Sequence record: NC_073061.1 | DNA length: 45,251 nucleotides | Source of the DNA: Escherichia phage vB_EcoS-101114BS4 | Direction: 5' to 3' (one strand) | Part shown: piece after piece, positions 1,041 through 15,583 of the stretch | How positions within the stretch are numbered: the first letter of the stretch is position 1 | How the letters are laid out: each line of letters opens with the position of its first letter | Program-made: the position numbers and the translations under genes | Notes under the pieces: model-generated | Seen by the model: the letters and a program-made list of their open reading frames with translations, nothing else | What the model was told of the DNA's origin: nothing | Database searches by the model: none

Positions 1041-1521
1041 TGACAACGGTCTAAGATTTACGGCAGCGTGGGAGTCGTTCAGCCCAGTGCCGTATTTCGC
1101 GACTAAGAAGGAGCAGGCCCGCGGCTTGTACACCTGGGGCTACGGTCATACTGGCACTAATCCGCCACAGAGCATTACCCGCGCGGAAGCGCTGGAGCTA
1201 CTCAAGCGTGATGTGGCGTATGCCGAGAACTGGGTGAACAAGTACGCACACCCGAGCATCAATCAGGCGCAATTCGACGCGCTGGTGGATCTGGTAATCA
1301 ATGCCGGTCAAGGTCCGATCGTACCGGATAACATTGCCAATGACTTCGATGACGCGGTGCGCCTGGGTGATTGGGCCAAAGTCCGTGCTACGCTGCCGCA
1401 GTTCCGCAAGCAAGGCGGTGAAGTGCTCAAGGGCCTGGTACGTCGTGCAATCGGCAGACAGGCGCTATTCGATGGTAAGCAGTGGGACGTTGCCGAGAAA
1501 ATCGGTCGTAACGCGGCATAA
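1030..1521 (+). CDS. Endolysin, lysozyme-like (GH24-type)
   Basis: PVPYFATKKEQARGLYTWGYGHTG resembles the catalytic region of phage lambda/P21-type lysozymes as I recall them; 163 aa; sits in the lysis cluster. Confidence 0.75.
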   Translation: MRFSDNGLRFTAAWESFSPVPYFATKKEQARGLYTWGYGHTGTNPPQSITRAEALELLKRDVAYAENWVNKYAHPSINQAQFDALVDLVINAGQGPIVPDNIANDFDDAVRLGDWAKVRATLPQFRKQGGEVLKGLVRRAIGRQALFDGKQWDVAEKIGRNAA

Positions 1522-1537
1522 TAAGAGGAAACACAGT

Positions 1538-1705
1538 ATGTTAAAAAGTATTCTTGATCATAACGCGGACGCGCTTGCCGCACTGGCTAAAACGGAAGAC
1601 CCAGGCGCGCGCGCCATTATCGCGGACACTATCAGTCATGCGGGTGTCTTTGACGTGAAGCTGCCAAGCCCGCCACCGCCGGAAGAACCAGGCCCAGCGG
1701 CATAA
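1538..1705 (+). CDS. Small hypothetical protein with a proline-rich C-terminus
   Basis: ATG 1538, 55 aa (MLKSILDHNADALAALAKTEDPG...LPSPPPPEEPGPAA); no signal peptide or lipobox, so not called a spanin. Confidence 0.3.
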   Translation: MLKSILDHNADALAALAKTEDPGARAIIADTISHAGVFDVKLPSPPPPEEPGPAA

Positions 1706-1711
1706 ACACGA

Positions 1712-1736
1712 AGCCCGGTTAATTCCGGGCTTTTTA
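1712..1736 (+). terminator. Rho-independent terminator
   Basis: agcccgg-ttaatt-ccgggct hairpin followed by ttttt. Confidence 0.7.
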
Positions 1737-1740
1737 TTGC

Positions 1741-1780
1741 TTGACTTGCAACCAACATAGGGTCCATACTGCAACCAATC
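1741..1780 (+). promoter_or_regulatory. Sigma70-like promoter carrying two direct GCAACCAA motifs
   Basis: TTGACT (1741-1746), 17-18 bp spacer, CATACT; GCAACCAA at 1748 and 1771; 20 bp upstream of the ATG at 1799. Confidence 0.45.
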
Positions 1781-1798
1781 AACGAGAGGAGTAATACT

Positions 1799-2011
1799 AT
1801 GGAACCTGAATTTTTCTGCGCGATTATGTGCCGCACGTCTGCCACGCATTTGATTAACCCGGACTGGCGCTACGATGTTTTCCTGATTGATGGTCGATAT
1901 TACATCATGGACGAGTACGGGAACTGGGCTGAAGTGTACCGCTTCAGCGATACTATGCGTGTTTGGATGACAATTGACGGATTTAGCGCCGCGTTCACTG
2001 ATTCGGAGTAA
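1799..2011 (+). CDS. Hypothetical protein
   Basis: 70-aa ORF with GAGG RBS upstream. Confidence 0.5.
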   Translation: MEPEFFCAIMCRTSATHLINPDWRYDVFLIDGRYYIMDEYGNWAEVYRFSDTMRVWMTIDGFSAAFTDSE

Positions 2012-2159
2012 CACACTATGACACGTAATGATATTTGGGTACTGGCTATCTGGTCCACCGCAGCATTCATCGGTATGGCTATTTGCGAATTGTTATAGCC
2101 CGCCGCCATAGGGACCGTGGTATATTGTCTTCGGTCCCATAATCAGGAAGTAAATTAAT

Positions 2160-3302
2160 ATGCACCCGCAAACTAAAATTACCGACGAGCAATTGATCGC
2201 TGAATTGCAATCTGGCACTACCTCGAAAGATATTGCGAAGAAATACGGCCTTTCCCTTCGTAATGTCTATATGCGCAAAGCCCGCCTGTCGAAGAAAGGT
2301 ATTGGACACGGCAACGATGCTGTAATCCGTAAGCGCGTTGCCGATGGCTTCGGCGTTAAGCGTGTATCCGCCCTGGTGCGTGGCAATGGCGAAGAGGTCA
2401 TGTCCTGGGTCATCACCGAGCAGGACAAGGAGCGCCAACTTGAAGCAATGCGCGCCGTTGTCGAGGGTATGAACAGCGAAATCACACCGGCAGCACCAGT
2501 GAGCGCTCCGCCAGTCCCGATCCAGGCGCTTGACCTGCTTAACCTGTATACCGTGTCGGACTTCCACCTGGGAATGTTGGCATGGGGCGAGGAGACTGGC
2601 GAAGACTGGGATATGGCAATCGCCGAAGACCTTTTCTACCGCTGGTTTGTCGAAGCCTTCGCCCGCGCGCCGGACGCTGGCACTGCCGTAATCAATATCC
2701 TCGGTGATATGGCCCACTTTGACAGCCTCGACGCCGTTACGCCAGCCAGTGGTCACGTACTGGATGCCGATACCCGCTACCAGAAGTTGGTCCGCTACAT
2801 GATTCGCATGGTGCGCAACGTGGTTGAACTGGCGCTGCAAAAACACCATAAGGTCAAACTGCTAATCGTCCAGGGTAATCATGATGAGTCCGGTATGATT
2901 TGGCTGGCTGAAATGTTCAATACCCTGTACGAGAACGAGCCGCGCGTTGATGTGGACACGTCACCGGACGTATACAAAATGGTGCAGCACGGCAAGACAA
3001 CGCTGTTCTTCCACCACGGGCACAAAGCACGCTTTGACGCTATTGAGCCGGTCATGATTTCTAAATTCAGACAGGCTTTCGGGTCCAGTGAGTACAGCTA
3101 CGCGCACGTGGGCCACTTGCACCACCAGAAGATTGTCGAATCCCGTAACATGATTGTTGAACAGCACCGGACCCTTGCCGCGAAAGACGCATATGCAAGC
3201 CGTGGCGGTTGGATGTCCGGTCGCAGTGCAAACGTCATCACCTATAGCGCCAACTACGGCGAAGTAGCGCGCTTAACCATTAGCCCGGAAATGTTGAAAT
3301 GA
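2160..3302 (+). CDS. HTH domain fused to a calcineurin-like metallophosphoesterase
   Basis: N-terminal helix-turn-helix-like segment (TSKDIAKKYGLSLRNVYMRKARL); metallophosphoesterase motifs SDFH (DxH), GDMAH (GDxxH), GNHDE (GNHD), HHGH. Confidence 0.6.
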   Translation: MHPQTKITDEQLIAELQSGTTSKDIAKKYGLSLRNVYMRKARLSKKGIGHGNDAVIRKRVADGFGVKRVSALVRGNGEEVMSWVITEQDKERQLEAMRAVVEGMNSEITPAAPVSAPPVPIQALDLLNLYTVSDFHLGMLAWGEETGEDWDMAIAEDLFYRWFVEAFARAPDAGTAVINILGDMAHFDSLDAVTPASGHVLDADTRYQKLVRYMIRMVRNVVELALQKHHKVKLLIVQGNHDESGMIWLAEMFNTLYENEPRVDVDTSPDVYKMVQHGKTTLFFHHGHKARFDAIEPVMISKFRQAFGSSEYSYAHVGHLHHQKIVESRNMIVEQHRTLAAKDAYASRGGWMSGRSANVITYSANYGEVARLTISPEMLK

Positions 3303-3511
3303 TTAGACAAGTATTCATGAGCACGCAGGCCACCCGCCTGAAAGAGCTACGCAAACAGCTTGAAGGCTTGCGCCGATTCGAACGAACGGCAGCGGCAATA
3401 GGCATGACTATCAGTGAGCGGATCGAGATACTATCGCAAATACGCTACACAGAAGGCGCTATAAGCGAAGTAGAAAGCATGTTGACCAGATACTACGGTC
3501 GCGCCGTTTAA
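3299..3511 (+). CDS. Hypothetical protein
   Basis: 70-aa ORF overlapping the upstream stop (ATGA); start uncertain. Confidence 0.4.
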   Translation: MIRQVFMSTQATRLKELRKQLEGLRRFERTAAAIGMTISERIEILSQIRYTEGAISEVESMLTRYYGRAV

Positions 3512-3518
3512 TCCTCCC

Positions 3519-3544
3519 AGCCCGCCGATTTGGTGGGCTTTTTT
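3519..3544 (+). terminator. Rho-independent terminator
   Basis: agcccgcc-gattt-ggtgggct hairpin (one G-U pair) followed by tttttt. Confidence 0.65.
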
Positions 3545-3628
3545 GTGCCTGTTATAATCCCCCTTAGATGGCTGGGCCGTCTCCTATGTTGCCGATGGTC
3601 GGCGCATATGCATAAAAGGGCTTATATC

Positions 3629-4180
3629 ATGGCAGAAATCAAAGTTAAAGGCCGTCGTGCCAAACTGGACGGACGAGTAGCAGTTACCCCGCGCCGTAAA
3701 CCAGGCGAGCAAACAGAACACACCAATCTTGGACCCGAGATCGAATACGGCAAACGTCGTAAAGGCGGCAAATGTGGACGCCCGACCGACTACCGCACCG
3801 TGTATTGTGACCAGCTTCGTCGCTATTTTGCTGATGCCGTAGCCTGGCAGATCAACTACTCCGACAAGGGCGCTGCGCAAGTAATCCCTCACAACAAGAT
3901 GCCGACTCTCGGTCGCTTTGCCGCGGATATTGGCGTTGGCATCGCTTGCCTGTATCGCTGGGCGCGTGCACATGAGGAGTTTGCCGAAGCGATGGCGGAC
4001 GCTATGGAGTTGCAGAAAACTTTCCTGATGGAAGCTGGCGGCGTGACCATCGCGGCGGGCTTCGCAACGTTCCTGCTTAAAGCCAACCACGGCATTCGTG
4101 ACGATGCTCCGCTGGATGACGACGAAGATGATAACGGCGACGTCGTTGTCGAACCTACCGGCAAAGGCCAGGGTGAGTAA
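3629..4180 (+). CDS. Terminase small subunit
   Basis: 183-aa protein with acidic C-terminus (DDDEDDNGD) immediately upstream of and overlapping the large terminase; central HTH-like segment. Confidence 0.6.
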   Translation: MAEIKVKGRRAKLDGRVAVTPRRKPGEQTEHTNLGPEIEYGKRRKGGKCGRPTDYRTVYCDQLRRYFADAVAWQINYSDKGAAQVIPHNKMPTLGRFAADIGVGIACLYRWARAHEEFAEAMADAMELQKTFLMEAGGVTIAAGFATFLLKANHGIRDDAPLDDDEDDNGDVVVEPTGKGQGE

Positions 4181-5565
4181 TGCGTAACTATGCGGCAGAA
4201 CACCGCGCACTCGAACGCGCGATCGCAAAGCGCAACCGACCGCCACGCCCTACGCGCGTTGCGCAGGCCGTCCGCCTGTATCAGCCTGATTGCCTACCGC
4301 ACCAGGTGGAATTACTGCGCGACACTAAGACTAAAATCCTCGGCCTTTGCTCCGGCTTCGGTGGCGGAAAGTCATGGGTCGCGGCGCGTAAGGTCATCCA
4401 GCTTCTCACACTTAACCCCGGTCATGATGGCATCGTTACAGAACCGACTATTCCACTCCTGGTTAAAATCATGTACCCGGAGCTTGAGAAGGCATTCGAC
4501 GAGGCTGGATTCCGGTGGAAGTTCAACAAGCAAGACAAGATTTATAGCGTGCTGGTGAAAGGCAAATGGACCCGCGTTATTTGTGAGTCAATGGAGAACT
4601 ACACCCGCCTGATCGGGGTTAACGCCGCGTGGATTGTTGCCGATGAGTTCGACACCACTAAGCAAGACGTCGCTATGGCGGCATATCACAAATTGCTTGG
4701 TCGTCTGCGTGCGGGCCTGGTGCGCCAGTTCGTCATCGTATCCACGCCTGAAGGCTTCCGGGCGATGTACCAGATTTTCGAAGTGGAGAAGGATAGCCAG
4801 AAACGTTTGATCAGGGCGAAGACTACCGATAATCACCACTTACCGGCAGACTTTATCGACACGCTGCGGAGCCAGTACCCGGCAAACCTGATTGATGCAT
4901 ACCTGAACGGCCTGTTTGTCAACCTTACGTCTGGCGCGGTCTACAAGATGTTTAACCGCGAAGAGAACGCCAGCACCGAGGAAGTGCAACCGGATGATAC
5001 GCTGATTATCGGTATGGACTTTAACGTAACGAAAATGGCGGCGGTTGTGTACGTCAGACGGCAGCACACTACCGAGAACAAGGAGTTCCGCGACGAGATT
5101 CACGCAGTGGATGAATTCGTGGACCTGTTTGATACCCCGGCTATGATTGAGGCGATCGAGGAGCGCTACCCCGATCATTGTGCTGCCGGTCGGGTCGTCG
5201 TTTACCCGGATAGCAGTGGCAAGTCTCGTAAGACTGTTAACGCATCGTCGTCCGATATCGCGCAACTGGAAGACGCTGGCTTCGAGGTGGAGTATGACAG
5301 CGTCAACCCGCCTGTAAAAGACAGATTGATCGCGATGAATACGATGATGTGCAACTCGAAGGGCGTGCGCCAGTATTTTGTCAACCTGGATAAATGCCCT
5401 ACACTAGCGAAATGTCTGGAACAGCAGGTTTATGACCTGAAGAAAGGCGAGCCGGATAAAACCGCCGGTGTGGACCACATGAACGATGCCGCGGGCTACC
5501 CTGTTGCGCACCTGTTCCCAGTGATTCGACCTATCGCCGTTGTTCCAACTGTAGACTTCTACTAA
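4180..5565 (+). CDS. Terminase large subunit
   Basis: 461 aa; Walker A-like LGLCSGFGGGKSW near the N-terminus, acidic nuclease-type C-terminal half; canonical position before the portal. Confidence 0.85.
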   Translation: MRNYAAEHRALERAIAKRNRPPRPTRVAQAVRLYQPDCLPHQVELLRDTKTKILGLCSGFGGGKSWVAARKVIQLLTLNPGHDGIVTEPTIPLLVKIMYPELEKAFDEAGFRWKFNKQDKIYSVLVKGKWTRVICESMENYTRLIGVNAAWIVADEFDTTKQDVAMAAYHKLLGRLRAGLVRQFVIVSTPEGFRAMYQIFEVEKDSQKRLIRAKTTDNHHLPADFIDTLRSQYPANLIDAYLNGLFVNLTSGAVYKMFNREENASTEEVQPDDTLIIGMDFNVTKMAAVVYVRRQHTTENKEFRDEIHAVDEFVDLFDTPAMIEAIEERYPDHCAAGRVVVYPDSSGKSRKTVNASSSDIAQLEDAGFEVEYDSVNPPVKDRLIAMNTMMCNSKGVRQYFVNLDKCPTLAKCLEQQVYDLKKGEPDKTAGVDHMNDAAGYPVAHLFPVIRPIAVVPTVDFY

Positions 5566-5575
5566 GGAAACGACC

Positions 5576-7096
5576 ATGACCGTTAACGTTGACAACCAGC
5601 ACCCACTCTATGCGCGCATCGCGCAGGAGTGGAAAATGATCCGGGATTGCGTAGCGGGGGAGCGCGCCGTGAAGGCGTGCGGCCCCTTGTACCTGCCACA
5701 TCCCGCCAGTGGCGATAATACCGACCCGAAAGCACGGGCGCGATATAAGGCATATAAGCAACGCGCTGTATTCCTGAACGCCACCGCACGCACGCTTAAT
5801 GCGCTGTTAGGCGTCGCCTTCGCTAAGCCGGTAAGTCTGGACCTTTCCGGGGCGATGGCTGACCTGATTGATGACGTAGACGGCAGCGGAATGCCACTGC
5901 CGCAACTCCTGCGCGGTGCTATGTCGGAAGTGCTGCAATCGGGCCGCGCGGGCTTTATGGTGGACTACGACCGCCAGGCTAACTTTGATGAACTGGGTAA
6001 CGTAGTGCCGCAGACCGCCGCCGAGATGGCGACGCACCGCCCGCTTATCCGCCTGTATACGGCAGAACAGATCATCAACTGGCGGCAGACCCACGGGATT
6101 GACACGCTAATCGTGCTGAAGGAAACGGACGAAATCAGCACCGAAGACCCGGACGACTTTGCAAACCACGAAGTAACGATCTGGACTGAATTGCGCATGA
6201 TTAACGGCGCGGCACACGCCCGCCGCTGGTTTTACAACGCAGACACGTCCGAGGTGCAGATGGACTTGCCGCGTGGCTTCACCCGCACCGAGCTTGTGCC
6301 GCTGGTGGATGCTGCCGGTCGAGCGCTTACTCAACTGCCATTTTGCTGGTGCGGTGCGGTGGACAACAACGCAACGCCTGACGCCGCGCCGCTGGCGGAT
6401 ATTGCATCCATCAACATTAAGCACTACAACGCTGAGGCGGACGTTGCCGAGATCGCGCACATCGTGGGCCAGCCTACCCTTGTCGCCACGGGCTTGACTC
6501 AATCATGGGCCGACAAAAACCTGAAGGGTGGGATTGCTCTCGGCGCGACTAAGGGCGTTATCCTGGGCCAGAACATGGACGCTAAACTGATTCAGGCCGA
6601 GGAGCGCAACTTGTCTGTTGCACTTTGTGAGCGCCGCGAATTGCAGATGGCTAAACTGGGCGCGGCCCTGGTTGAGAAGGGGACTGCACCAAAGACGGCA
6701 ACGGAAGCGGCATACGATGCGCAGACTGACAATAGTATCCTGTCGCTCATTGCCGGTAACGTTGAGAAGGCTTTCAACCGTGCGCTGCAAATCGTCCAGC
6801 TATTCACGGGTGATACCGCGGACCAGCGCGTGACGCTGAACAAGTTCTACACCGAAATCACGGTTGACGCGCAGCTTATGACCGCAATGATGGCTGGTGT
6901 TCAGACCGGTACGGTCCGACTGGCTGACTTCATCAAGTGGATGATGGCGCAGGGCGTTATCGATGACTCGCAAACCGTAGAGCAGGTGGAAGACGAATTG
7001 CGAAATCAGAATCCATTGCCTCAAATGTCCCCTGATGCGGTAGAATCTACCGAAGAAGACCCGGACAAGGTAGCGGACAATGGCGAGAACAATTAA
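5576..7096 (+). CDS. Portal protein
   Basis: 506-aa ORF directly after the large terminase, acidic C-terminal tail; assigned by size and synteny. Confidence 0.7.
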   Translation: MTVNVDNQHPLYARIAQEWKMIRDCVAGERAVKACGPLYLPHPASGDNTDPKARARYKAYKQRAVFLNATARTLNALLGVAFAKPVSLDLSGAMADLIDDVDGSGMPLPQLLRGAMSEVLQSGRAGFMVDYDRQANFDELGNVVPQTAAEMATHRPLIRLYTAEQIINWRQTHGIDTLIVLKETDEISTEDPDDFANHEVTIWTELRMINGAAHARRWFYNADTSEVQMDLPRGFTRTELVPLVDAAGRALTQLPFCWCGAVDNNATPDAAPLADIASINIKHYNAEADVAEIAHIVGQPTLVATGLTQSWADKNLKGGIALGATKGVILGQNMDAKLIQAEERNLSVALCERRELQMAKLGAALVEKGTAPKTATEAAYDAQTDNSILSLIAGNVEKAFNRALQIVQLFTGDTADQRVTLNKFYTEITVDAQLMTAMMAGVQTGTVRLADFIKWMMAQGVIDDSQTVEQVEDELRNQNPLPQMSPDAVESTEEDPDKVADNGENN

Positions 7097-8183
7097 TCAA
7101 CATATGGCGGATCGCATGATTCGCCGTCACATCTTCACCCAGCGCCTGAGCAATGACCAGGCGCGGCGGGTGTTGGCTATGTGGGAGAAGTTCCGGCCCA
7201 CGTTACTTGGCAAGCTGACCGAGTTACTTGATGGCAAAAAGTCCATGAATAACAAGGCACTGACCACACTGTTAACGCAAATCGACAAGACCGTCAAAAC
7301 GGAACTGCGCACCGAGTTTAAGGCGCTGGCTGAAAGCCTTCAGGAGTTTGCCGACACCGAGGCTGATTATCTTGCCGATACATTAACGGCAGCGATCCAG
7401 CCTGCGGTAGCCGTACCGGCTGTTGAGGTTGTTGGCGTAGTGACTGGCGCGCAGATTGCAGCCACGGCTATGAAAAACCCGTTCCAGGGAAACACCATGA
7501 TGCAATGGCCTGATTCACTTTCTGAGTGGACCAGGACGCAGATCGGGAATCAGGTGCGCGCTGGATTCATCCAGGGCAAGCCGACTATGGAAATTATCGC
7601 GGACGTAAAGCGCGCTCTCGGCGGTCGTAGCGCGCAAGCTATCTCAAGTGTTGTTAAGTCCGCAGTAAACCACTATGCGGCGACCGCCCGCGAGTTAATG
7701 GTGAAAGCTAATGACGATATTCTCGAAGGTCGCCAATGGTTGGCTACATTGGATACGCACACATCACCAATGTGCCAGCTACGCGATCGCCTGTTTTATC
7801 CTGTTGACGTCACTCCCGACACCAAAGGAAAGCGCGGCGGGAAAGTGGTGGCTGGATCACAATATGGCGCTGGTCCGGGCAAGCTACATTATTGCTGCCG
7901 TTCGACGGAGACGTGGAAAGTTAAAGGCATGGAAGATTGGCCCAGTGGTAAGCGTCCGGCACTGAAGGCTGACGCGGGTCGATTGCTGAGTGAGCAGGTC
8001 GACGCGCAGACTGATTTCTTCTCATGGGTGCAGCGCCAGCCGCGCCATATTCTGGAGGAATTATATGGGGTGCAGCGCGCAGACCAGATTATGCGCGGCG
8101 TGAAAGTGCCGAAGATGTTCACCGATACCGGCGAACTAATGACTATCGCACAGCTTAAAAACCGGGGGTTATGGCGTGATTAA
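7080..8183 (+). CDS. Head morphogenesis (minor head) protein
   Basis: 367-aa ORF overlapping the portal 3' end; position typical of F/gp7-like head morphogenesis proteins. Confidence 0.55.
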   Translation: MARTINQHMADRMIRRHIFTQRLSNDQARRVLAMWEKFRPTLLGKLTELLDGKKSMNNKALTTLLTQIDKTVKTELRTEFKALAESLQEFADTEADYLADTLTAAIQPAVAVPAVEVVGVVTGAQIAATAMKNPFQGNTMMQWPDSLSEWTRTQIGNQVRAGFIQGKPTMEIIADVKRALGGRSAQAISSVVKSAVNHYAATARELMVKANDDILEGRQWLATLDTHTSPMCQLRDRLFYPVDVTPDTKGKRGGKVVAGSQYGAGPGKLHYCCRSTETWKVKGMEDWPSGKRPALKADAGRLLSEQVDAQTDFFSWVQRQPRHILEELYGVQRADQIMRGVKVPKMFTDTGELMTIAQLKNRGLWRD

Positions 8184-8484
8184 ATATGCAGCGATTGGAC
8201 TGGTTATCGGTCTGGCGGTTGGATTCTGGCAGGGTGATTCCTACCGCACTGGCGTTGTGGCGCAAGAAGCGCAAGAAGCGCAAGCGAAAGCCCAACGGCA
8301 GCAAACTAAGGTTGTTGAGGGGTCGGTGAAGGCTGAGCAGGCCCGCGACGTGGAATACCGGACTATCACGAAAGAGGTTGTAAAATATGTTACGCGTCCT
8401 AACCGTCCTGATTGTAGTTTTGATGCTGAGCGCGTGCGGATCAAGCAAAGCGCCATCGACGCCGCTAACCGAGTCGGTCTATAG
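8176..8484 (+). CDS. i-spanin (Rz-like)
   Basis: GTG start; N-terminal transmembrane anchor IKYAAIGLVIGLAVGFW then charged, coiled-coil-like periplasmic region; the lipoprotein gene is embedded out of frame in its 3' end. Confidence 0.6.
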   Translation: MIKYAAIGLVIGLAVGFWQGDSYRTGVVAQEAQEAQAKAQRQQTKVVEGSVKAEQARDVEYRTITKEVVKYVTRPNRPDCSFDAERVRIKQSAIDAANRVGL

Positions 8485-8617
8485 ACCGCCTTGCACCTTT
8501 GAGAATGCATCGGCAGATCCAGACGAAGACTTGCTGGTTGATGTTAAAAATATGGAATGCGGGGCTAAGCTAAGGGCGCAAGTGCTGGAGTTGCAGAAAA
8601 TAATTCGGGGGCCGTGA
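8387..8617 (+). CDS. o-spanin (Rz1-like outer membrane lipoprotein)
   Basis: MLRVLTVLIVVLMLSACGSS signal peptide with lipobox LSAC; starts inside the i-spanin gene in another frame. Confidence 0.65.
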   Translation: MLRVLTVLIVVLMLSACGSSKAPSTPLTESVYRPPCTFENASADPDEDLLVDVKNMECGAKLRAQVLELQKIIRGP

Positions 8618-8630
8618 TGGCCCCTTTTTT
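8607..8630. terminator. Terminator, possibly bidirectional, between convergent genes
   Basis: gggggcc-gtgat-ggcccc hairpin followed by tttttt on + and by a T-rich tract on -. Confidence 0.7.
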
Positions 8631-8635
8631 GTTAA

Positions 8636-9151
8636 TTACAAACGCATCGGCATGATAACTAAAAAGGCACCTCCTTTGAACAGCACGCGTGTTGCCTTGT
8701 CTACTCCCTGAAATTCCAGTTTTAAGCCCTCAAACTTATGGTCGAACAATTTAGCAATTTTGCAGGCGTCGGACAGGTATGCCCCTTTAAACCCGATAGC
8801 CTCCACTTTATTGCTGACGAAAGACGTAACTCTTCTCCAGTCTGGAAATCGTCCGTCTACAATCTCGATGGGTATGGTAGCTATTAATACGTCTTTACTA
8901 TCGAAGAACGCGGCGGAGGTGCCGTCTATGTTGCAGTATTCGAATTTAGTAGGTAAGCGGCCTTTAATTGATACTATTTTACTTTCACCTTCTGGTACAA
9001 CCGCAGACCCGCAGAACAAACGGTGACCGTCTGTAGCCACGATGTATCCTTTCTCGTCGAAAAATACACCATTTAGGAAGTATCGGACGTCATTAGTTGC
9101 GGCGCATATCGTAGCGGCTTTAAGATCGGCGTAGTTAACTTTAATCATTTT
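8636..9151 (-). CDS. Truncated DnaN (beta sliding clamp)-like protein
   Basis: Motifs DVRYFLNG, VATDGHRL, VDGRFPDWRRV and C-terminal VIMPMRL match what I recall of E. coli DnaN domain II and its C-terminus; start taken at MIKVNY (GAGG RBS), alternative start at 9190. Confidence 0.6.
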   Translation of the reverse strand, partial: KMIKVNYADLKAATICAATNDVRYFLNGVFFDEKGYIVATDGHRLFCGSAVVPEGESKIVSIKGRLPTKFEYCNIDGTSAAFFDSKDVLIATIPIEIVDGRFPDWRRVTSFVSNKVEAIGFKGAYLSDACKIAKLFDHKFEGLKLEFQGVDKATRVLFKGGAFLVIMPMRL

Positions 9152-9205
9152 AATTTCCTCGTGGTTATGTAGACGATAATTCGGGGCCATTACAGCCCCC
9201 TTTTG

Positions 9206-9970
9206 TTAGCGCGGAATACCGCAGATTTCGTTTAACGTCTTCACATCCAGCGCTACTGCCGTTGACTTCGGCTTGTCCGGGTATGGAATGAATTGTTCAA
9301 CTTCAGGCCACGCCGCGATCAGCTTCTTGTCAGTATTGTGCATATCCAGCACGCCGGTAACGGTTAGTTTGAACGCGTCATACTTCGCACGCAATTCACG
9401 GCGGGCCTTGTCGTTGTGGTCCAGGCGCTTGCAGAAATCATGCTCTGCCGGGTAGTCTACGCGACCGCGTGGTAGATATATCGGCAGCGCTTTTCCGTCC
9501 TCATCCACTTCACATACTGACGCGAGCATAATTTCCTCGTACCCCGGTACAATATCGCTAACGTCAGGCGCGAGCGTATTCATATATTTTTCTTCCCAGT
9601 ATCCGCGGTGCTGGCGGTAGCGGTATCCGTCGCCGCTCATATGCAGGGTACGGATGTTACCGCCTGCGTTGATTTCGAAAGTGGAGCAGTAAACGCGTCC
9701 AATGCCTTTCTGACGGTCTTTGTTATAGCTATACGTCGCCTCGTCGGTGTAAACGCTGACGCCGTACATCTGCGACTGGTTATCGCGGATTTCTGCGATA
9801 TATGCGCGTAGCTCGGCGAACGTGTGAATGCCTTCTGGCATACAGTCCAGCGTAATTGCGTACGCCAGGTCGCGAGAGGCCATCATGATTGATTTGGCTT
9901 CAGTCGCGATTTCGTGGTCGCGCAGGATGTTAGCCAGAATCTGGTTTTTAATGTCTTTTGTCAGTCTCAT
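9206..9970 (-). CDS. Hypothetical protein, co-transcribed with the DnaN-like gene
   Basis: 254-aa ORF starting MRLTKDIKNQ with GAGGA RBS; no motif recognised; antisense to the flanking structural genes. Confidence 0.6.
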   Translation of the reverse strand: MRLTKDIKNQILANILRDHEIATEAKSIMMASRDLAYAITLDCMPEGIHTFAELRAYIAEIRDNQSQMYGVSVYTDEATYSYNKDRQKGIGRVYCSTFEINAGGNIRTLHMSGDGYRYRQHRGYWEEKYMNTLAPDVSDIVPGYEEIMLASVCEVDEDGKALPIYLPRGRVDYPAEHDFCKRLDHNDKARRELRAKYDAFKLTVTGVLDMHNTDKKLIAAWPEVEQFIPYPDKPKSTAVALDVKTLNEICGIPR

Positions 9971-9990
9971 TTGTGTTTCCTCATTGTTGG

Positions 9991-10017
9991 TGTGCAACCA
10001 ATATAGTGCAACCAATA
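9991..10017. promoter_or_regulatory. Divergent control region with two direct TGCAACCAAT motifs
   Basis: TGCAACCAAT at 9993-10002 and 10008-10017, between the minus-strand start at 9970 and the scaffold start at 10120. Confidence 0.5.
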
Positions 10018-10119
10018 CCTGTATTGCAAGCGAATTTTGCGATTATTTTTATCGCTGATAATATTAAAGGCGTGAAGTCGAGCGGGTGGCCCGCTCTGCC
10101 ACGATCCCAGGGGGATAGC

Positions 10120-10824
10120 ATGGAAATTACTAAAGCAGAATATGACGCGTTGCCGGAAGGTATGAAGGCGCTTTTTGTTGCCAATGGCGACGGGTATAAA
10201 TCAACATTTATGTCCGCTGAGGAAGTACAGGCGGAAATCAAGGGTCTGAAAGACAACAACGCAAAGCTGGTGAGCGAGAAGAAAGCAGAAGCTGAACGCC
10301 GCGCCGAAGCCGAGCGCCTTGCGAAAGAGAAAGAGGAAGCCGCCGCGCGCAAAAATGGCGACCTCGAAGCGATCGATAAATCCTGGAAGGATAAGTTGGC
10401 AAAACACGAAGCTGACACATCGGGGAAAATCGAATCCTATCGCAAGCAGATCCACGACCTTACTATCGGCAGCGCTGCCAAAGACCTGGCATCGAAGCTA
10501 TTTGGTAAGAATGCTGGCATCATGCAACGCCACGTAATGGAGCGCCTCGCGCTGGAAGACGGTGAAGACGGCAGCTTGAAAGTGCGTGTCTTGCAGGATG
10601 GCAAACCGTCCGCGCTGACTATGGACGAGCTTGAAAAAGAGTTCCGTAATAACGCTGATTTTGCATCCGTCCTGGCTGGCACGCCCGCCGGTGGCGCTCC
10701 GAGCAAACCGACACAGGTTATCGAAGATGCGAAGTCTAAAATCACGATGGGCCATAGCTTCGGTATCACGGACCTGACGAAACAGGCAGGGGATATCATC
10801 GCTAAGATGGGCGACGACGAGTAA
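10120..10824 (+). CDS. Scaffolding protein (putative)
   Basis: 234 aa, charged and coiled-coil-rich (AEAERRAEAERLAKEKEEAAARK), directly upstream of the major capsid gene. Confidence 0.6.
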   Translation: MEITKAEYDALPEGMKALFVANGDGYKSTFMSAEEVQAEIKGLKDNNAKLVSEKKAEAERRAEAERLAKEKEEAAARKNGDLEAIDKSWKDKLAKHEADTSGKIESYRKQIHDLTIGSAAKDLASKLFGKNAGIMQRHVMERLALEDGEDGSLKVRVLQDGKPSALTMDELEKEFRNNADFASVLAGTPAGGAPSKPTQVIEDAKSKITMGHSFGITDLTKQAGDIIAKMGDDE

Positions 10825-10828
10825 GCAG

Positions 10829-10853
10829 ATCGCCCGCGAAAGCGGGCGATTTT
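10829..10853 (+). terminator. Terminator-like hairpin
   Basis: atcgcccgc-gaaa-gcgggcgat perfect hairpin followed by only ttt. Confidence 0.45.
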
Positions 10854-10921
10854 GCGAGCGCGTAAATCTAAGGTAACATTAACGTCACTGGGCGAATGCT
10901 CACAACTCAAAGGATTTCGAT

Positions 10922-12016
10922 ATGTCTTTAACAGTGTTCCAGCGTAAACTCGTTACCGCGGTTACGCAAATGATCCCCGACAACCTGAACGTGTTCAACG
11001 CTGCCGCTAATGGCGCTGTTGTTCTCGGTACAGGTGAAGTGCTGAAGGACGTTGTAGAAAAAATGTCCGTCGGCTTGATCGCCAACCTCGTTACTGACCG
11101 TAACGCATATGCGCCTGTTGGCACACCGGCAACCGCTAAAGTGCTGGCGCGTATGCTGACTAACTCGGTTAACCTCTCCGCGAAAGTGGGTCCGGTAGCA
11201 ATCACTAAGGCTATGATGGCTAAGATCGAAACCAACGTTAACAGCGTTGCGGCTGAGATTGCGGCACAGGCTACTCAAGCGATTATGCTGCATTACCTGA
11301 AAGCTGGTATCGGCGCAAGTAAAGCGGCGATCGAGAGCAACGCAGCGGCAGCATACACCCAACCGGCGCGCGTTGATGGCGTTGGCGGTCGTACCTTCCC
11401 TACCCTGGCAGACTTCCCGCTGGCGGCTTCTAAGTTCGGCGATCAGGCGTCTTTGATTAAGTCCTGGTTTATGGACGGCGTTACCTGGGCTAACTTCATT
11501 GCCTATCAGGCACTGCCTTCCGCTGAGCAGGTATTCGCGATCGGCGATCTGCAAGTAATGGGTGATGGCCTGGGCCGTCGTTTCATTATCTCCGATGCCG
11601 CTGCCGATGCTATGGGCGCTGGCAAAATGCTGGGTCTGGTCCCTGGCGCGGTTGCAGTTACCACCAACGGCCTCGATATGCTGGCGCAGGAAAAAGGCGG
11701 TAACGAGAACATCGAGCGCTGGTGGCAGGGTGAGTTCGACTTCAACGTGGCTGTTAAAGGCTACCGTCTGAAGGCGTCCGCTCGTACCCCGATCGAAGGC
11801 GTCCGCTCTTTTGCCCTGGGTGATATCACCACTAAGGACAACTGGGAACTGGATCAGGGCCAGGTAGACAACGCTCCGGCAACCGTCCAGGACGTTGGCG
11901 GCGAAAGCGATACTAAAGGCCGTCGTAAGGCGCAGACCGCACAGGCCGTGCCGACCCGTAACATCAAGGAAACGGCTGGCGTACTGGTTACGCTGACCGC
12001 GACCAGCGCGTCTTAA
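10922..12016 (+). CDS. Major capsid protein
   Basis: 364-aa ORF after the scaffold gene, followed by a strong terminator; assigned by size and synteny. Confidence 0.75.
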   Translation: MSLTVFQRKLVTAVTQMIPDNLNVFNAAANGAVVLGTGEVLKDVVEKMSVGLIANLVTDRNAYAPVGTPATAKVLARMLTNSVNLSAKVGPVAITKAMMAKIETNVNSVAAEIAAQATQAIMLHYLKAGIGASKAAIESNAAAAYTQPARVDGVGGRTFPTLADFPLAASKFGDQASLIKSWFMDGVTWANFIAYQALPSAEQVFAIGDLQVMGDGLGRRFIISDAAADAMGAGKMLGLVPGAVAVTTNGLDMLAQEKGGNENIERWWQGEFDFNVAVKGYRLKASARTPIEGVRSFALGDITTKDNWELDQGQVDNAPATVQDVGGESDTKGRRKAQTAQAVPTRNIKETAGVLVTLTATSAS

Positions 12017-12033
12017 TCGGCGCACATCCCAAA

Positions 12034-12059
12034 GGGGCGGGCTTATGCCCGCCTTTTTT
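12034..12059 (+). terminator. Rho-independent terminator
   Basis: ggggcgggc-ttat-gcccgcc hairpin followed by tttttt. Confidence 0.8.
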
Positions 12060-12074
12060 ATAGGAGCGAATAAA

Positions 12075-12575
12075 ATGTATGGCGACCCGCAAACCTTTAC
12101 TGATTATGCCGCAGCGCGTGGCGTTGAAATTACGCTGGGCGATGCAACGCGACACCTTACCATCGTTAATGACTTCCTCAACGGCCTCAACTGGATCGGC
12201 GAACAAGCCGACCAGACCGGAATCGACGCATGGCCCCGCATTAATTACCCGTCAGACGGTAAGCCGGTGCGAGACACGCTCACTGAAGTTGTGGCGGTAG
12301 TGCCTGCCGGGCAAATCGTAGACTTCGCATCAATCCCTGTTGCCGTTGAGCAAGCCGTTTACCGGCTGGCGCTGTTGGTGGCGGACGATATTGATATTTC
12401 TCCGATCGGCGGTGGCAAAGAGACTATCCGCGAAACGGTTGGCCCAATCACGATGGAGTATGACCCCGCTACAATCGGCGGATACGTGGCGTTCCCGTGG
12501 TGGGATGGCTTGCTGGGCTACTGGGTGAACGTAGACGGCAACGCTTCAGGTAACTTTGACGTATACAGGGGCTAA
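12075..12575 (+). CDS. Head-tail connector / head completion protein (putative)
   Basis: 166-aa ORF (MYGDPQTF...) first after the capsid terminator; assigned by synteny. Confidence 0.5.
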   Translation: MYGDPQTFTDYAAARGVEITLGDATRHLTIVNDFLNGLNWIGEQADQTGIDAWPRINYPSDGKPVRDTLTEVVAVVPAGQIVDFASIPVAVEQAVYRLALLVADDIDISPIGGGKETIRETVGPITMEYDPATIGGYVAFPWWDGLLGYWVNVDGNASGNFDVYRG

Positions 12576-12676
12576 TATGAATCCGGCTGTTATTGCAGCG
12601 TTGCTGGCAGCGCTGGCGACGAAAGAGAAAGAGGAAGAACCAGTACCGCCGGAAGCACCGGCGCGGGAGGAAGACG

Positions 12677-13030
12677 ATGGCGGGCTTTGACTACGCGGGC
12701 TTAAAGCGGAAAGTTAATCCGCTGATTAAAAAATTCGGCATGACAGTTACCGTGACGCGTCCCGGATCTGTTGACCGCGTTAACGGCGACGAAGTGGTAA
12801 TCCCGCCGACCTCGTTTGATATCATCGGACTGCGTGAGGAGTACAAGCCACGCGAGATCGACGGTACCCTGGTCATTGCCGGTGATGTTAAATTCTTATG
12901 CCAGGCGGTGGAGCAATTGCAGGTAGGCGATCTGGTTAACCTGAATAACACAGACTACCGGGTCGTTAATACTAACCCCCTGCAACCGGCGGGCACGACC
13001 ATGCTGTTTCAATTACAGCTAAGGGGCTAA
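12677..13030 (+). CDS. Head-tail joining protein (putative)
   Basis: ATG at 12677 (MAGFDYAGLKRK...), 117 aa; the K/R-rich upstream extension in the ORF track is treated as non-coding. Confidence 0.5.
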   Translation: MAGFDYAGLKRKVNPLIKKFGMTVTVTRPGSVDRVNGDEVVIPPTSFDIIGLREEYKPREIDGTLVIAGDVKFLCQAVEQLQVGDLVNLNNTDYRVVNTNPLQPAGTTMLFQLQLRG

Positions 13031-13031
13031 C

Positions 13032-13625
13032 GTGGCTGAGGTCTACTCGTTCGCCGCTACCATTGCAACATGGGTAGATAAGACGAAGGAGAACAACGAC
13101 AAGGCGGTGCGGGCGACCGGTATGCAAATACTCGGACGCCTGATTGAGATCTCCCCGGTGGGCGACCCCCGCCGGTGGAAGATTAACAAGGCTTACGCGA
13201 TGGCCCGCCAGCACGCGAACAAGGTGAACGCCGCACAGCGGCGCAAGAATGGCGGCAAACTGAAGCGCGGGCAGAAGAAGCACGCCAGTGTGCTCGTATC
13301 GTTCAAGACTAAAAACGGCAACGTCACGTTCCGCCAGCGTGGCTGGGCCGCGAAGAATTACACCGGCGGGCGCTTCCGGGGAAACTGGCAGGTGTCTTTC
13401 GACCGTCCGGCTGTTGGCGCTGTTGACCGAGTGGACAAGGCCGGAACGGCAACATTAGCCGCAGGGCGTGATGTGCTGGCGCATTATGATTCTGGCGAAT
13501 ATGGGTCGATCTGGTTTACTAACAATGTGCCGTATGCGCAGCGGCTTGAGTATGGCTGGAGTAAACAAGCGCCCGCGGGGATTGTTCGCGTCGTAGCGGC
13601 AGAAATCAATTCGAAGGTGAAATAA
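13032..13625 (+). CDS. Neck / tail completion protein (putative)
   Basis: GTG start, 197 aa, between connector genes and the major tail gene. Confidence 0.5.
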   Translation: MAEVYSFAATIATWVDKTKENNDKAVRATGMQILGRLIEISPVGDPRRWKINKAYAMARQHANKVNAAQRRKNGGKLKRGQKKHASVLVSFKTKNGNVTFRQRGWAAKNYTGGRFRGNWQVSFDRPAVGAVDRVDKAGTATLAAGRDVLAHYDSGEYGSIWFTNNVPYAQRLEYGWSKQAPAGIVRVVAAEINSKVK

Positions 13626-14047
13626 TGAGCAATACTCTAATCCGCAAGGCGCTTAACAGCGTAGTTGAAGAATTATCGGTAAGCCTGAGCACTAACCAGC
13701 GCCCGATCAAGGTTAACTGGGAGAACGTGAAGGGCGACCACGCTATCGGCAATGGCGTGTACCTGGAGCCGTACTTGCTTCCGGCACCGACCCAGTTTGT
13801 TGGCATTCAGCAGAAGGGCCGGATCTACGCAGGCGTGTATCAGGTTGCCGTAGTGTTCCCCGCGGGCACTGGCACACAGTATGCGAGCGAACTGGCGGAC
13901 GCCATCGCGACGTCAGACAAATGGCAGGGCGTCAAGATTACCGGCGCTACCTTCCAGCTTCAGGACGCGCCCTACACCAGTTCGGTGATTGAAGATATCG
14001 ACCGCGCCCGCATCGTGGTATCGGTCCTGTATAACTGTTGCGCCTGA
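13625..14047 (+). CDS. Tail terminator / tail completion protein (putative)
   Basis: 140-aa ORF overlapping the upstream stop (ATGA), immediately before the major tail protein gene. Confidence 0.5.
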   Translation: MSNTLIRKALNSVVEELSVSLSTNQRPIKVNWENVKGDHAIGNGVYLEPYLLPAPTQFVGIQQKGRIYAGVYQVAVVFPAGTGTQYASELADAIATSDKWQGVKITGATFQLQDAPYTSSVIEDIDRARIVVSVLYNCCA

Positions 14048-14108
14048 TTTGGCGCAATTCTGCGCGTGCTGTATCATTAATCCGTATATCTAAACAGGAG
14101 CTTTCATT

Positions 14109-14834
14109 ATGGGTTATCAACTTCCTAACGGGTCTAGCGTCCAGATTGGGTCCGTACTGGGCGACGGCATCGCTGTTACGGCAGCTACCAACGCCACCGC
14201 GTCGATCTCTGACCTCGCTACCGGTTGCGTTATTACCTGCGCGGAATCTCATGGTCTGGTTGTTGGTGATGTGGTTATGTTCACTAAAACCCCGTGGGTC
14301 CGTGCGCTAAACCGCGCGTTTATCGTTGGCGCAGTGTCTACCAACGATGTGACGCTGGCGCGCTTCGACTCCTCGGACGTCACCAAATATCCTACCGGTG
14401 CTTTTGCAGTAGGCACTCCGGGTGAAGTGGTGAAGGTGTCGAGCTTTATCGACTTCCCGTTTATCACCAACGTTGCCGTGTCGGGTGGCGACCAGCAGAC
14501 GACTACCTTCCAGCCGTTGCAGGTGAACACCGCGATCAGTCTGAACACCACGAAAAACCCGTTGGTCCAGACGTACACCTTCACCCACGACGAAGAAGAC
14601 CCGATCCGCCCTATCCTGGAAGACCTGGACGATACACAGAAAACCACTGTTATTAAGTTCACGAACCCAGCGGCAGCAAGCGGCAAAGGTGAGATCCGTA
14701 TTTACCCGGCAAAGGTATCTTTCCAGAAGATTCCATCCGCTGAAGTAAACAACGTGGAAACGGTACAATCCACTCTGACCATGCAGTCTGATATGGTTAT
14801 CTACCGTAAGGATCTGGTCGAGGCACTGTCTTGA
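14109..14834 (+). CDS. Major tail (tube) protein
   Basis: 241-aa ORF with AGGAG RBS, followed by a terminator and the chaperone/tape-measure genes. Confidence 0.7.
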   Translation: MGYQLPNGSSVQIGSVLGDGIAVTAATNATASISDLATGCVITCAESHGLVVGDVVMFTKTPWVRALNRAFIVGAVSTNDVTLARFDSSDVTKYPTGAFAVGTPGEVVKVSSFIDFPFITNVAVSGGDQQTTTFQPLQVNTAISLNTTKNPLVQTYTFTHDEEDPIRPILEDLDDTQKTTVIKFTNPAAASGKGEIRIYPAKVSFQKIPSAEVNNVETVQSTLTMQSDMVIYRKDLVEALS

Positions 14835-14864
14835 TTTGGTCGCTTAAATAGCGAGTGTTAATAT

Positions 14865-14887
14865 GGGGCCAGCACGGCCCCTTTTTT
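14865..14887 (+). terminator. Rho-independent terminator
   Basis: ggggcc-agcac-ggcccc hairpin followed by tttttt. Confidence 0.7.
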
Positions 14888-15580: not shown

Positions 15581-15583
15581 TGA

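What the first reader, a model, noticed from the sequence alone, without database searches (positions are those of the whole stretch)
8176..8617. Spanin pair located far from the holin-endolysin cassette
The overlapped Rz/Rz1-type pair (transmembrane i-spanin with an embedded, out-of-frame lipoprotein o-spanin) sits after the head morphogenesis gene, about 7 kb from the holin and endolysin genes at 514..1521. A split lysis cassette implies separate regulation or a module acquired independently.
Basis: partly seen in the sequence, partly recalled or inferred. Interest (0 to 1): 0.4.

Follow-up and report, generated by a model that had tools for sequence, protein, structure and literature searches.

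The report
Known spanin pair in Dhillonvirus phage
The two overlapping genes are a real outer-membrane-disrupting "spanin" pair, but their position far from the other lysis genes is the normal, already annotated layout of this whole phage lineage, so the finding is ordinary.

Summary
Observation confirmed with one correction. 8176..8484 (+, GTG, 102 aa) has an N-terminal transmembrane helix. 8387..8617 (+, ATG, 76 aa, +1 frame) has a signal peptide with lipobox L-S-A-C (Cys17). The genes share 98 nt and the o-spanin runs 133 nt past the i-spanin stop, so the architecture is "overlapped", not "embedded". Both hit Rz-like spanin PHROGs (E 6e-35 and 1e-25). Holin, holin and endolysin at 514..1521 are confirmed, 6.65 kb upstream. 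No second spanin candidate lies next to the endolysin.

The window is a Dhillonvirus genome (98.9% identical to Escherichia phage vB_EcoS-CHD5UKE2 over 7000..10000). The pair is already annotated as i-/o-spanin in phages Oekolampad and EP23. Kongari et al. 2018 place the EP23, HK578 and SSL-2009a pairs in the overlapped "Jersey" spanin family.

The split layout is present in all 18 Dhillonvirus loci examined and in Jerseyvirus and Kagunavirus relatives. Base composition is typical, and the i-spanin start overlaps the head-morphogenesis stop by 8 nt. Recent independent acquisition is therefore not supported. Separate transcription from holin-endolysin is possible, because terminator-like hairpins intervene, but it is untested. 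Already known; low interest.

The parts
8176..8484 (+). i-spanin gene (102 aa, GTG start). It has an N-terminal transmembrane anchor at about residues 2-18. The periplasmic domain is helix - short linker containing Cys80 - helix.
   Evidence: ORF. phrog_2536 Rz-like spanin, E 6e-35. Transmembrane segment at residues 1-17. GTG start, Shine-Dalgarno, helix and Cys80 are conserved in 18 relatives. The AF2 single-sequence model gives H5-72, a break at 73-83 and H84-99, but pLDDT is only 56.7.
8387..8617 (+). o-spanin gene (76 aa, ATG start, +1 frame). It has a lipoprotein signal peptide with lipobox LSAC (Cys17) and Gly at +2. The mature protein is 60 aa, with Cys36 and Cys58.
   Evidence: Lipobox scan. 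phrog_5672, E 1.2e-25, and phrog_1267, E 2.5e-12. The lipobox Cys and both other Cys are invariant in 18 relatives.
8387..8484 (+). 98-nt dual-coding overlap of the i-spanin 3' end and the o-spanin signal peptide and N-terminus.
   Evidence: Coordinates. In most relatives, nucleotide identity is higher here than in the single-coding parts.
8164..8183 (+). Junction with the head-morphogenesis gene. GGGGG Shine-Dalgarno at 8164-8168, i-spanin GTG at 8176, head-morphogenesis stop TAA at 8181-8183. The 8-nt overlap suggests translational coupling.
   Evidence: Read directly from the sequence. Conserved in all relatives.
8607..8631 (+). Intrinsic-terminator-like hairpin GGGGGCC-GTG-ATGGCCCCT followed by a T run. 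It ends the terS - terL - portal - head-morphogenesis - spanin block.
   Evidence: Terminator scan. The hairpin is conserved in 18 relatives.
514..1521 (+). Functional partners: holin (514..804), second holin/antiholin-like membrane protein (801..1040) and soluble T4-lysozyme-type endolysin (1030..1521).
   Evidence: phrog_2359, phrog_2508 and phrog_7. Pfam PF00959, E 1.5e-21. Transmembrane segments.
479..508 (+). Terminator-like hairpin immediately upstream of the holin gene.
   Evidence: A terminator is annotated at the equivalent place in phage WF5505.
1710..1733 (+). Terminator-like hairpin downstream of the endolysin and a 54-aa ORF. It lies between the lysis cassette and the spanins.
   Evidence: Annotated equivalently in WF5505.
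3519..3539 (+). Terminator-like hairpin just upstream of the small terminase gene.
   Evidence: Annotated equivalently in WF5505.

Best explanation
This is the ordinary two-component spanin of a Dhillonvirus (HK578/EP23-like siphovirus of E. coli). It belongs to the overlapped 'Jersey' spanin family.

Inferred mechanism, from the established lambda Rz/Rz1 model:
1. The i-spanin is anchored in the inner membrane by its N-terminal helix and projects a helical domain into the periplasm.
2. The o-spanin is lipidated at Cys17, sorted to the outer membrane (Gly at +2) and binds the i-spanin C-terminal region.
3. The complexes, probably disulfide-linked homodimers through the conserved cysteines, span the periplasm but are held in check by the peptidoglycan meshwork.
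4. The holin(s) at 514..1040 trigger and the endolysin at 1030..1521 degrades the wall.
5. The spanins can then move laterally and fuse inner and outer membranes, which completes lysis.

The pair is expressed as the last two cistrons of the terminase - portal - head-morphogenesis block. It is translationally coupled to the head-morphogenesis gene and closed by a strong terminator. Its separation from holin-endolysin is the ancestral gene order of Dhillonvirus and Guernseyvirinae, not a peculiarity of this genome.

Shown here: gene structure, targeting signals, homology, synteny and conservation. Inferred: membrane fusion, complex formation and co-transcription.
For: - Identity of the window: 98.9% to Escherichia phage vB_EcoS-CHD5UKE2 over 7000..10000. 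156 phage records match, mostly Escherichia phages, with five records named Dhillonvirus.
- Public annotation: i-spanin and o-spanin are annotated at the same place in Oekolampad and as 'Rz-like spanin' x2 in EP23 RefSeq.
- PHROG hits: E 6e-35 and 1e-25.
- Signals: transmembrane helix and lipobox.
- Conservation of all signals and cysteines in 18 relatives.
- Literature: Kongari et al. 2018 (PMC6139136) list EP23, HK578, JL1, SSL-2009a, SO-1 and EK99P-1 in the overlapped Jersey i- and o-spanin families. They describe the short EP23 subfamily as two helices with a linker, and two constant o-spanin cysteines.
- Synteny in Dhillonvirus: holin-holin-endolysin lies 6-7.5 kb upstream wherever the locus reaches that far. 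The spanins directly follow head morphogenesis in 18/18 loci.
- Same order in Kagunavirus RP180 and Jerseyvirus S532.
- Jerseyvirus SeF1 carries the same four PHROGs, split in the same way: Gp_009/010 versus Gp_063-065 (PMC9409062).
- Dhillonvirus P78 has holins 0031/0032, endolysin 0033 and spanin 0040 (PMC12677095).
- Pairwise homology to the Jerseyvirus and Kagunavirus pairs: E about 1e-15 to 1e-17.
Against: - No experiment on any member of this spanin family was found; function rests on homology and signals.
- The structure model is low confidence (pLDDT 56.7).
- There is no Pfam match to lambda Rz or Rz1, so the mechanistic analogy is by class, not by sequence family.
- Co-transcription with the head genes is inferred from the gene overlap only. 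Promoter-like sites in 1..12000 are no more frequent than in shuffles (9 found against 9.8 expected), so transcription units are undefined.
Confidence: 0.9

Rival explanations
1. The spanin pair is an independently and recently acquired module in this phage. It would have been inserted behind the head-morphogenesis gene by horizontal transfer.
For: - The slot between head morphogenesis and scaffold is variable. The o-spanin-to-scaffold distance varies by several hundred bp among relatives, and the reverse-strand genes differ in content and order.
- Spanin alleles diverge faster than the flanks: the o-spanin-only part is 81-98% identical against about 91-93% for the flanks.
- A distant homologous pair sits in a contiguous endolysin-holin-spanin cassette in Klebsiella phage BUCT541, so linkage has changed at some point in deep evolution.
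Against: - The position is identical in 18/18 Dhillonvirus loci and in Kagunavirus and Jerseyvirus.
- GC of 0.529 is at the 28th percentile of same-size windows.
- The 8-nt overlap with the head-morphogenesis stop is conserved in all relatives.

Any relocation predates the divergence of these genera.
Confidence: 0.04
2. The spanins are regulated separately from holin-endolysin. They would lie in a different late transcription unit, so that spanin dosage is tied to head-gene expression rather than to the lysis cassette.
For: - Three strong terminator-like hairpins on the + strand (479-508, 1710-1733, 3519-3539) bracket the lysis cassette and precede terS.
- A fourth closes the spanin block at 8607-8625.
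- Terminators are independently annotated at the equivalent places in WF5505.
Against: - Terminator-like hairpins are frequent throughout the late region, even between structural genes (18 found against 12.8 +/- 2.9 expected; WF5505 annotation). Read-through or antitermination is therefore likely.
- No promoter signal above background was found.
- In the lambda model, lysis timing is set by the holin, so spanins need no distinct control (established knowledge; Kongari 2018 background).
Confidence: 0.35
3. The ORFs are not lysis proteins. For example, the lipoprotein could be a superinfection-exclusion factor and the upstream ORF an unrelated membrane protein.
For: - There is no direct experiment for this family.
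- Phage lipoproteins such as Cor and Llp do act in exclusion.
- A Cor-like lipoprotein exists elsewhere in this genome, at 25833..26054 (-).
Against: - The paired overlapped architecture combines a type II inner-membrane protein with an outer-membrane lipoprotein, and the periplasmic cysteines are conserved. This is the spanin signature.
- No other spanin candidate exists in a genome that has a canonical holin and a soluble endolysin and infects a Gram-negative host.
- The homologous pair lies inside a contiguous lysis cassette in BUCT541.
Confidence: 0.03

Closest known systems
Spanin pairs of Dhillonvirus phages: EP23 p05/p06, SSL-2009a, HK578, Oekolampad bas18_0005/0006
   Same: - Same genes at the same position, directly after the head-morphogenesis / minor capsid gene.
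- 87-97% (i-spanin) and 78-100% (o-spanin) amino-acid identity.
- Same GTG and ATG starts, 98- or 119-nt overlap, lipobox, cysteines and terminator.
   Different: - Allelic only. The window has the 102-aa i-spanin allele ending ...ANRVGL, rather than the 109-aa allele ending ...GVGTATAVQVR.
- It has the matching 'KAPSTPLTESVYRPPCTFENAS' o-spanin N-terminal variant.
'Jersey' overlapped spanin family (Kongari et al. 2018, PMC6139136), as in Jerseyvirus and Kagunavirus
   Same: - Homologous i- and o-spanins: 37-43% identity, shared motifs KYVTRP.R..C.F..ERV.IK and PPC...DEDL.IDV.N.EC.
- Overlapped architecture.
- Same split from the homologous two-holin + endolysin cassette.
- Same slot between head morphogenesis and scaffold.
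   Different: - The Guernseyvirinae i-spanins are longer (128 aa against 102 aa).
- A head-decoration gene and small ORFs lie between head morphogenesis and the spanins, so there is no direct overlap with that gene.
Phage lambda Rz/Rz1
   Same: Same functional class: a type II inner-membrane protein plus an outer-membrane lipoprotein encoded in the +1 frame, with periplasmic cysteines.
   Different: - No detectable sequence homology; there were no Pfam hits for either protein.
- Lambda Rz1 is fully embedded in Rz, and the pair is contiguous with S and R.
- Here the pair is overlapped and 6.65 kb from the endolysin.
Phage T4 pseT.3/pseT.2
   Same: Precedent for spanin genes not located near the holin and endolysin genes (Kongari 2018, Fig. 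8 legend and text).
   Different: - T4 has the separated architecture and a different sequence family.
- In T4 the holin and endolysin are also unlinked from each other.
Klebsiella phage BUCT541 lysis cassette (MZ836210.1)
   Same: Distant homologue of the i-spanin (31% identity over 96 aa, E 1.5e-15) with an overlapped lipoprotein partner carrying lipobox ISGC.
   Different: There the pair is contiguous with a lysozyme and a small membrane protein, in the order endolysin - holin-like - i-spanin - o-spanin.

Membership tests
Two-component spanin (functional class) | The i-spanin is a type II inner-membrane protein with a single N-terminal transmembrane domain. | tested here: met
   There is one hydrophobic segment, at residues 1-17, and none elsewhere. 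It is conserved in 18 relatives.
Two-component spanin (functional class) | The i-spanin periplasmic domain is mainly alpha-helical: two helices joined by a linker. | tested here: inconclusive
   The AF2 single-sequence model gives H5-72, a break at 73-83 and H84-99, but mean pLDDT is 56.7. This agrees with the published description of the EP23 subfamily.
Two-component spanin (functional class) | The o-spanin has a signal peptidase II signal with a lipobox Cys and an outer-membrane sorting residue (not Asp) at +2. | tested here: met
   The N-terminus is MLRVLTVLIVVLMLSAC-G, with lipobox LSAC, Cys17 and Gly at +2. L[ST]AC-G is invariant in 18 relatives. Lipidation itself is not testable here.
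Two-component spanin (functional class) | The o-spanin gene is adjacent to, or out of frame within, the i-spanin gene. | tested here: met
   The o-spanin starts 211 nt into the i-spanin in the +1 frame, with a 98-nt overlap and a 133-nt extension. This is the overlapped class.
Two-component spanin (functional class) | Periplasmic cysteines are available for intermolecular disulfides. | tested here: met
   i-spanin Cys80 and o-spanin Cys36 and Cys58 are invariant in all 19 sequences. Two constant o-spanin cysteines are noted for the family in Kongari 2018.
Two-component spanin (functional class) | The pair is required for outer-membrane disruption; a null mutant arrests as spherical cells. | not testable with these tools
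   This needs genetics. No experimental paper on this family was found.
'Jersey' spanin family (Kongari 2018) / PHROG 2536 + 5672 | Significant sequence similarity of both proteins to family members. | tested here: met
   - phrog_2536, E 6e-35, and phrog_5672, E 1.2e-25.
- 87-88% identity to the listed members EP23 and SSL-2009a.
- 37-43% identity to the Jerseyvirus and Kagunavirus pairs, E 1e-15 to 1e-17.
Lambda Rz / Rz1 sequence families (Pfam) | Match to the Pfam Rz or Rz1 models, and embedded architecture. | tested here: not met
   There is no Pfam family at or above its cut-off for either protein. The architecture is overlapped, not embedded.
Unimolecular spanin (T1 gp11 type) | A single protein with an N-terminal lipobox and a C-terminal transmembrane domain. 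| tested here: not met
   The o-spanin has no C-terminal hydrophobic segment. No other ORF in the window combines the two features.
Contiguous lysis cassette (lambda SRRzRz1 type) | Spanin genes adjacent to the holin and endolysin genes. | tested here: not met
   6,654 bp and about eight genes separate the endolysin stop (1521) from the i-spanin start (8176). The same holds in all relatives.

The most novel reading that the evidence does not exclude
The conserved placement of the spanins as the terminal, translationally coupled cistrons of the terminase - portal - head-morphogenesis block could be a functional design rather than historical accident. They are separated from holin-endolysin by three intrinsic terminators across Dhillonvirus and Guernseyvirinae. 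Such a design would tie spanin dosage or timing to head assembly.
Probability: 0.1. Interest if true: 0.3.

Novelty: already known. Interest (0 to 1): 0.07.

Why it matters
It matters little beyond annotation. The pair completes the lysis gene set of this phage (two holins, endolysin, i- and o-spanin). It is also a reminder that spanins must be searched genome-wide rather than only beside the endolysin.

Several close relatives in GenBank lack the o-spanin call, or start it downstream of the signal peptide. The coordinates here can be used to correct those records. The conserved split layout across two siphovirus groups is a modest comparative-genomics point and is already implicit in published annotations.

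Tried and rejected
1. A second spanin or u-spanin near the endolysin. Lipobox and transmembrane scans of all six frames found none. The + strand ORFs between 1521 and 3511 (1541..1705, 1799..2011, 2160..3302, 3299..3511) have no transmembrane segment or lipobox, and hit PHROGs of unknown function or a DNA repair exonuclease.
2. Compositional evidence for horizontal acquisition. GC and GC3 of the spanin locus are unremarkable.
3. A dedicated promoter for the spanins. The sigma-70 scan gives no site near 8176, and overall counts equal those in shuffles.
4. Lambda Rz/Rz1 family membership. There are no Pfam hits.
5. A structure model of the i-spanin. The single-sequence AF2 model has low confidence and was used only as weak secondary-structure support. 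No fold search was run because of that.
6. tRNA and Rfam scans of the window found nothing.
7. Experimental work on this spanin family. None was found in the searched papers.

Full report
**What is there**

The window carries two overlapping + strand ORFs at the reported coordinates.
- ORF 8176..8484 starts with GTG, seven bases after a GGGGG Shine-Dalgarno (8164..8168), and encodes 102 aa. Residues 1-17 form its only hydrophobic segment. The rest is a charged, Q/A/E-rich sequence with a single cysteine (Cys80).
- ORF 8387..8617 starts with ATG, nine bases after AGAGG (8373..8377), in the +1 frame, and encodes 76 aa.
- Its N-terminus, MLRVLTVLIVVLMLSAC-G, is a textbook lipoprotein signal: a basic n-region, an uncharged h-region, lipobox L-S-A-C and Gly at +2.
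- The two genes share 98 nt, and the second runs 133 nt past the stop of the first. The architecture is therefore "overlapped" in the Summer/Kongari nomenclature.
- The i-spanin GTG overlaps the stop codon of the upstream head-morphogenesis gene (7080..8183, phrog_241, E 1e-115) by 8 nt.
- A strong hairpin plus T-run (8607..8631) follows the o-spanin stop.

**More than chance**

- Only three loci in the entire six-frame translation of the 45-kb window pass a lipobox filter, and this is one of them.
- The i-spanin hits phrog_2536 (E 6e-35). The o-spanin hits phrog_5672 (E 1.2e-25) and phrog_1267 (E 2.5e-12). All three are annotated "Rz-like spanin".
- In 18 related loci the following are invariant or nearly so: both start codons, both Shine-Dalgarno sequences, the transmembrane helix, the lipobox Cys, Gly at +2, i-spanin Cys80, o-spanin Cys36 and Cys58, and the terminator hairpin.
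- In most relatives, nucleotide identity in the 98-nt overlap is higher than in the single-coding parts. This is as expected for dual coding.

**The partners**

- ORF 514..804 (96 aa, two or three hydrophobic segments, phrog_2359 "holin").
- ORF 801..1040 (79 aa, phrog_2508 "holin").
- ORF 1030..1521 (163 aa, Pfam Phage_lysozyme E 1.5e-21, no N-terminal hydrophobic segment, hence a soluble endolysin).

The endolysin stop is 6,654 bp from the i-spanin start.

Between them lie two small ORFs of unknown function, a DNA repair exonuclease homologue, another small ORF, terS, terL, portal and head morphogenesis. None of the + strand ORFs next to the endolysin has a transmembrane segment or a lipobox.

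**What the genome is**

- The 3-kb stretch around the finding is 98.9% identical to Escherichia phage vB_EcoS-CHD5UKE2 and 98.3% identical to vB_EcoS_WF5505.
- It matches 156 phage records. Most are named as Escherichia phages and five as Dhillonvirus; the close hits whose records were opened (Oekolampad, EP23, WF5505) are classified in Dhillonvirus.
- In Oekolampad (BASEL collection) the two ORFs are annotated "i-spanin" and "o-spanin". In EP23 RefSeq both are "Rz-like spanin".
- Kongari et al. 2018 (PMC6139136) list EP23, HK578, JL1, SSL-2009a, SO-1 and EK99P-1 within the overlapped "Jersey" i- and o-spanin families.
- They describe the short EP23 subfamily as two helices with a linker, and two constant o-spanin cysteines.
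- A recent description of Dhillonvirus P78 lists holins 0031/0032, endolysin 0033 and spanin 0040, which is the same split.

The object and its position are thus already known.

**Is the split a sign of independent acquisition?**

The split is conserved:
- I mapped the window's holins, endolysin, terL, portal, head-morphogenesis, spanin and scaffold proteins onto 18 Dhillonvirus loci by tblastn. These were 15 IMG/VR contigs and 3 GenBank records. The order was the same everywhere.
- The spanins directly follow head morphogenesis in all 18 loci. Holin-holin-endolysin lies 6-7.5 kb upstream in every locus that extends that far.

The same order holds outside the genus:
- Kagunavirus RP180 has terminase - portal - head morphogenesis - decoration - spanin - scaffold.
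- Jerseyvirus S532 has holin - lysin - ... - terS - terL - portal - head morphogenesis - decoration - spanins - scaffold.
- In Jerseyvirus SeF1 the same four PHROGs (2359, 2508, 2536, 5672) are split in the same way (PMC9409062).
- The Jerseyvirus and Kagunavirus proteins are true homologues, with 37-43% identity and E 1e-15 to 1e-17 in pairwise tests. The shared motifs are KYVTRP.R..C.F..ERV.IK and PPC...DEDL.IDV.N.EC.

Composition and divergence:
- GC of the spanin locus is 0.529, against 0.544 +/- 0.032 for same-size windows, which is the 28th percentile.
- Its nucleotide divergence tracks that of the flanks, apart from somewhat faster evolution and two allelic forms.

Recent modular acquisition is therefore not supported. 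The separation predates the divergence of Dhillonvirus and Guernseyvirinae.

One observation bears on deeper history. In the unclassified Klebsiella phage BUCT541, a distant homologue of the pair lies in a contiguous lysozyme - holin-like - i-spanin - o-spanin cassette. Linkage has therefore changed at some point in the history of this spanin family.

**Is separate regulation implied?**

Not by the layout itself.
- There is no room for a dedicated promoter, given the 8-nt overlap with the preceding gene.
- The sigma-70 scan finds no excess of promoter-like sites (9 found against 9.8 expected) and none near 8176.
- The spanins are most simply the last cistrons of the packaging and head block, translationally coupled to head morphogenesis.

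However, three strong terminator-like hairpins on the + strand separate the lysis cassette from that block: 479-508, 1710-1733 and 3519-3539. The WF5505 authors annotated terminators at the equivalent positions.

Such hairpins are also common between structural genes in this phage (18 found against 12.8 +/- 2.9 expected; WF5505 annotation). Read-through is therefore plausible. Whether holin-endolysin and the spanins share a transcript cannot be decided from sequence.

By established knowledge of lambda lysis, spanins accumulate harmlessly until the holin fires and the endolysin removes the peptidoglycan. Separate control is therefore not needed. T4 is a published precedent for spanins unlinked from holin and endolysin.

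**Mechanism**

Shown here: the signals for inner-membrane anchoring and for outer-membrane lipoprotein targeting, the conserved cysteines, and homology to the Jersey spanin family.

Inferred from the lambda Rz/Rz1 paradigm: C-terminal i-o interaction, disulfide-linked dimers, a periplasm-spanning complex restrained by the murein, and inner-outer membrane fusion after endolysin action.

A single-sequence AlphaFold model gives one long helix (5-72), a break at 73-83 containing Cys80, and a second helix (84-99). This is consistent with the published two-helix description, but the model has low confidence (pLDDT 56.7).

There is no Pfam match to lambda Rz or Rz1. The pair works like Rz/Rz1 but is not a member of that sequence family.

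**Verdict**

Its position is the normal gene order of a large siphovirus lineage. Novelty: already known. Interest: low.

Noticed in passing
window 25833..26054 (-): This is the only other credible lipoprotein ORF in the genome (73 aa, MKTLIMICAVLLSGC, lipobox LSGC). It hits phrog_4281 (unknown function, E 4e-33) and has a weak N-terminal match to Cor superinfection-exclusion protein (phrog_1119, E 6e-4). It lies just downstream of the 1148-aa ORF at 21391..24837 and a reverse-strand 324-aa ORF. It is probably a Cor/Llp-like receptor-blocking lipoprotein, not a spanin.
   Followed up: partly
window 8636..10015 (-): Two reverse-strand genes are wedged between the spanin terminator and the scaffold gene. 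One is a beta-clamp-like protein (phrog_3007, annotated 'RusA-like'; sub-threshold Pfam DNA_pol3_beta_2 match, 24 bits vs cut-off 27). The other is an Nmad5 nucleotide-modification-associated protein (PF18757, E 1e-54). The slot is variable among relatives: Oekolampad has only the Nmad5 gene, and EP23 has both in the opposite order. About 18% of the 3-kb query is missing in many relatives.
   Followed up: partly
window 8440..8617; loci L002, L008-L019: There are two allelic forms of the spanin pair in the genus. The i-spanin is 102 aa (...ANRVGL) or 109 aa (...GVGTATAVQVR), giving an overlap of 98 or 119 nt. The o-spanin mature N-terminal region co-varies with it (KAPSTPLTESVYRPPCTFENAS versus NVPLMPLTESALRPPCKFDNPS). 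The o-spanin-only DNA is 81-84% identical between alleles, against about 91-93% for the flanking head genes.
   Followed up: partly
L002 4836..5066; L020 10113..10343; L004 8776..9271: Public annotation errors in relatives:
- EP23p06 is called from 4908 (52 aa), which omits the signal peptide and lipobox that start at 4836.
- WF5505 has no o-spanin CDS and calls the i-spanin 'hypothetical'.
- In Jerseyvirus S532 the i- and o-spanin labels are swapped and the o-spanin call is truncated.
- The phrog_5672 profile (47 positions) covers only the C-terminal part of the o-spanin, probably for the same reason.
   Followed up: partly
window 135..461 (+): A conserved small membrane protein of unknown function (phrog_2531, E 1.5e-35, one strong transmembrane segment) lies immediately upstream of the holin gene. 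The terminator-like hairpin at 479-508 separates the two. A role in lysis control was not examined.
   Followed up: no
window 1..12000 (+): Intrinsic-terminator-like hairpins are more frequent than in shuffled sequence (18 found against 12.8 +/- 2.9). They sit at gene-block boundaries: 479, 1710, 3519 and 8607. The WF5505 record annotates similar terminators even after the scaffold and major capsid genes. This suggests attenuated or antiterminated late transcription.
   Followed up: no
L021 7546..8680 (Klebsiella phage BUCT541, MZ836210.1): A distant homologue of this spanin pair lies in a contiguous lysozyme - 77-aa membrane protein - i-spanin - o-spanin cassette. The i-spanin is 31% identical, and its overlapped lipoprotein partner has lipobox ISGC. 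All four genes are unannotated or 'hypothetical' in the record.
   Followed up: partly
window 1..45251: No tRNA genes and no Rfam family reached threshold anywhere in the genome.
   Followed up: yes
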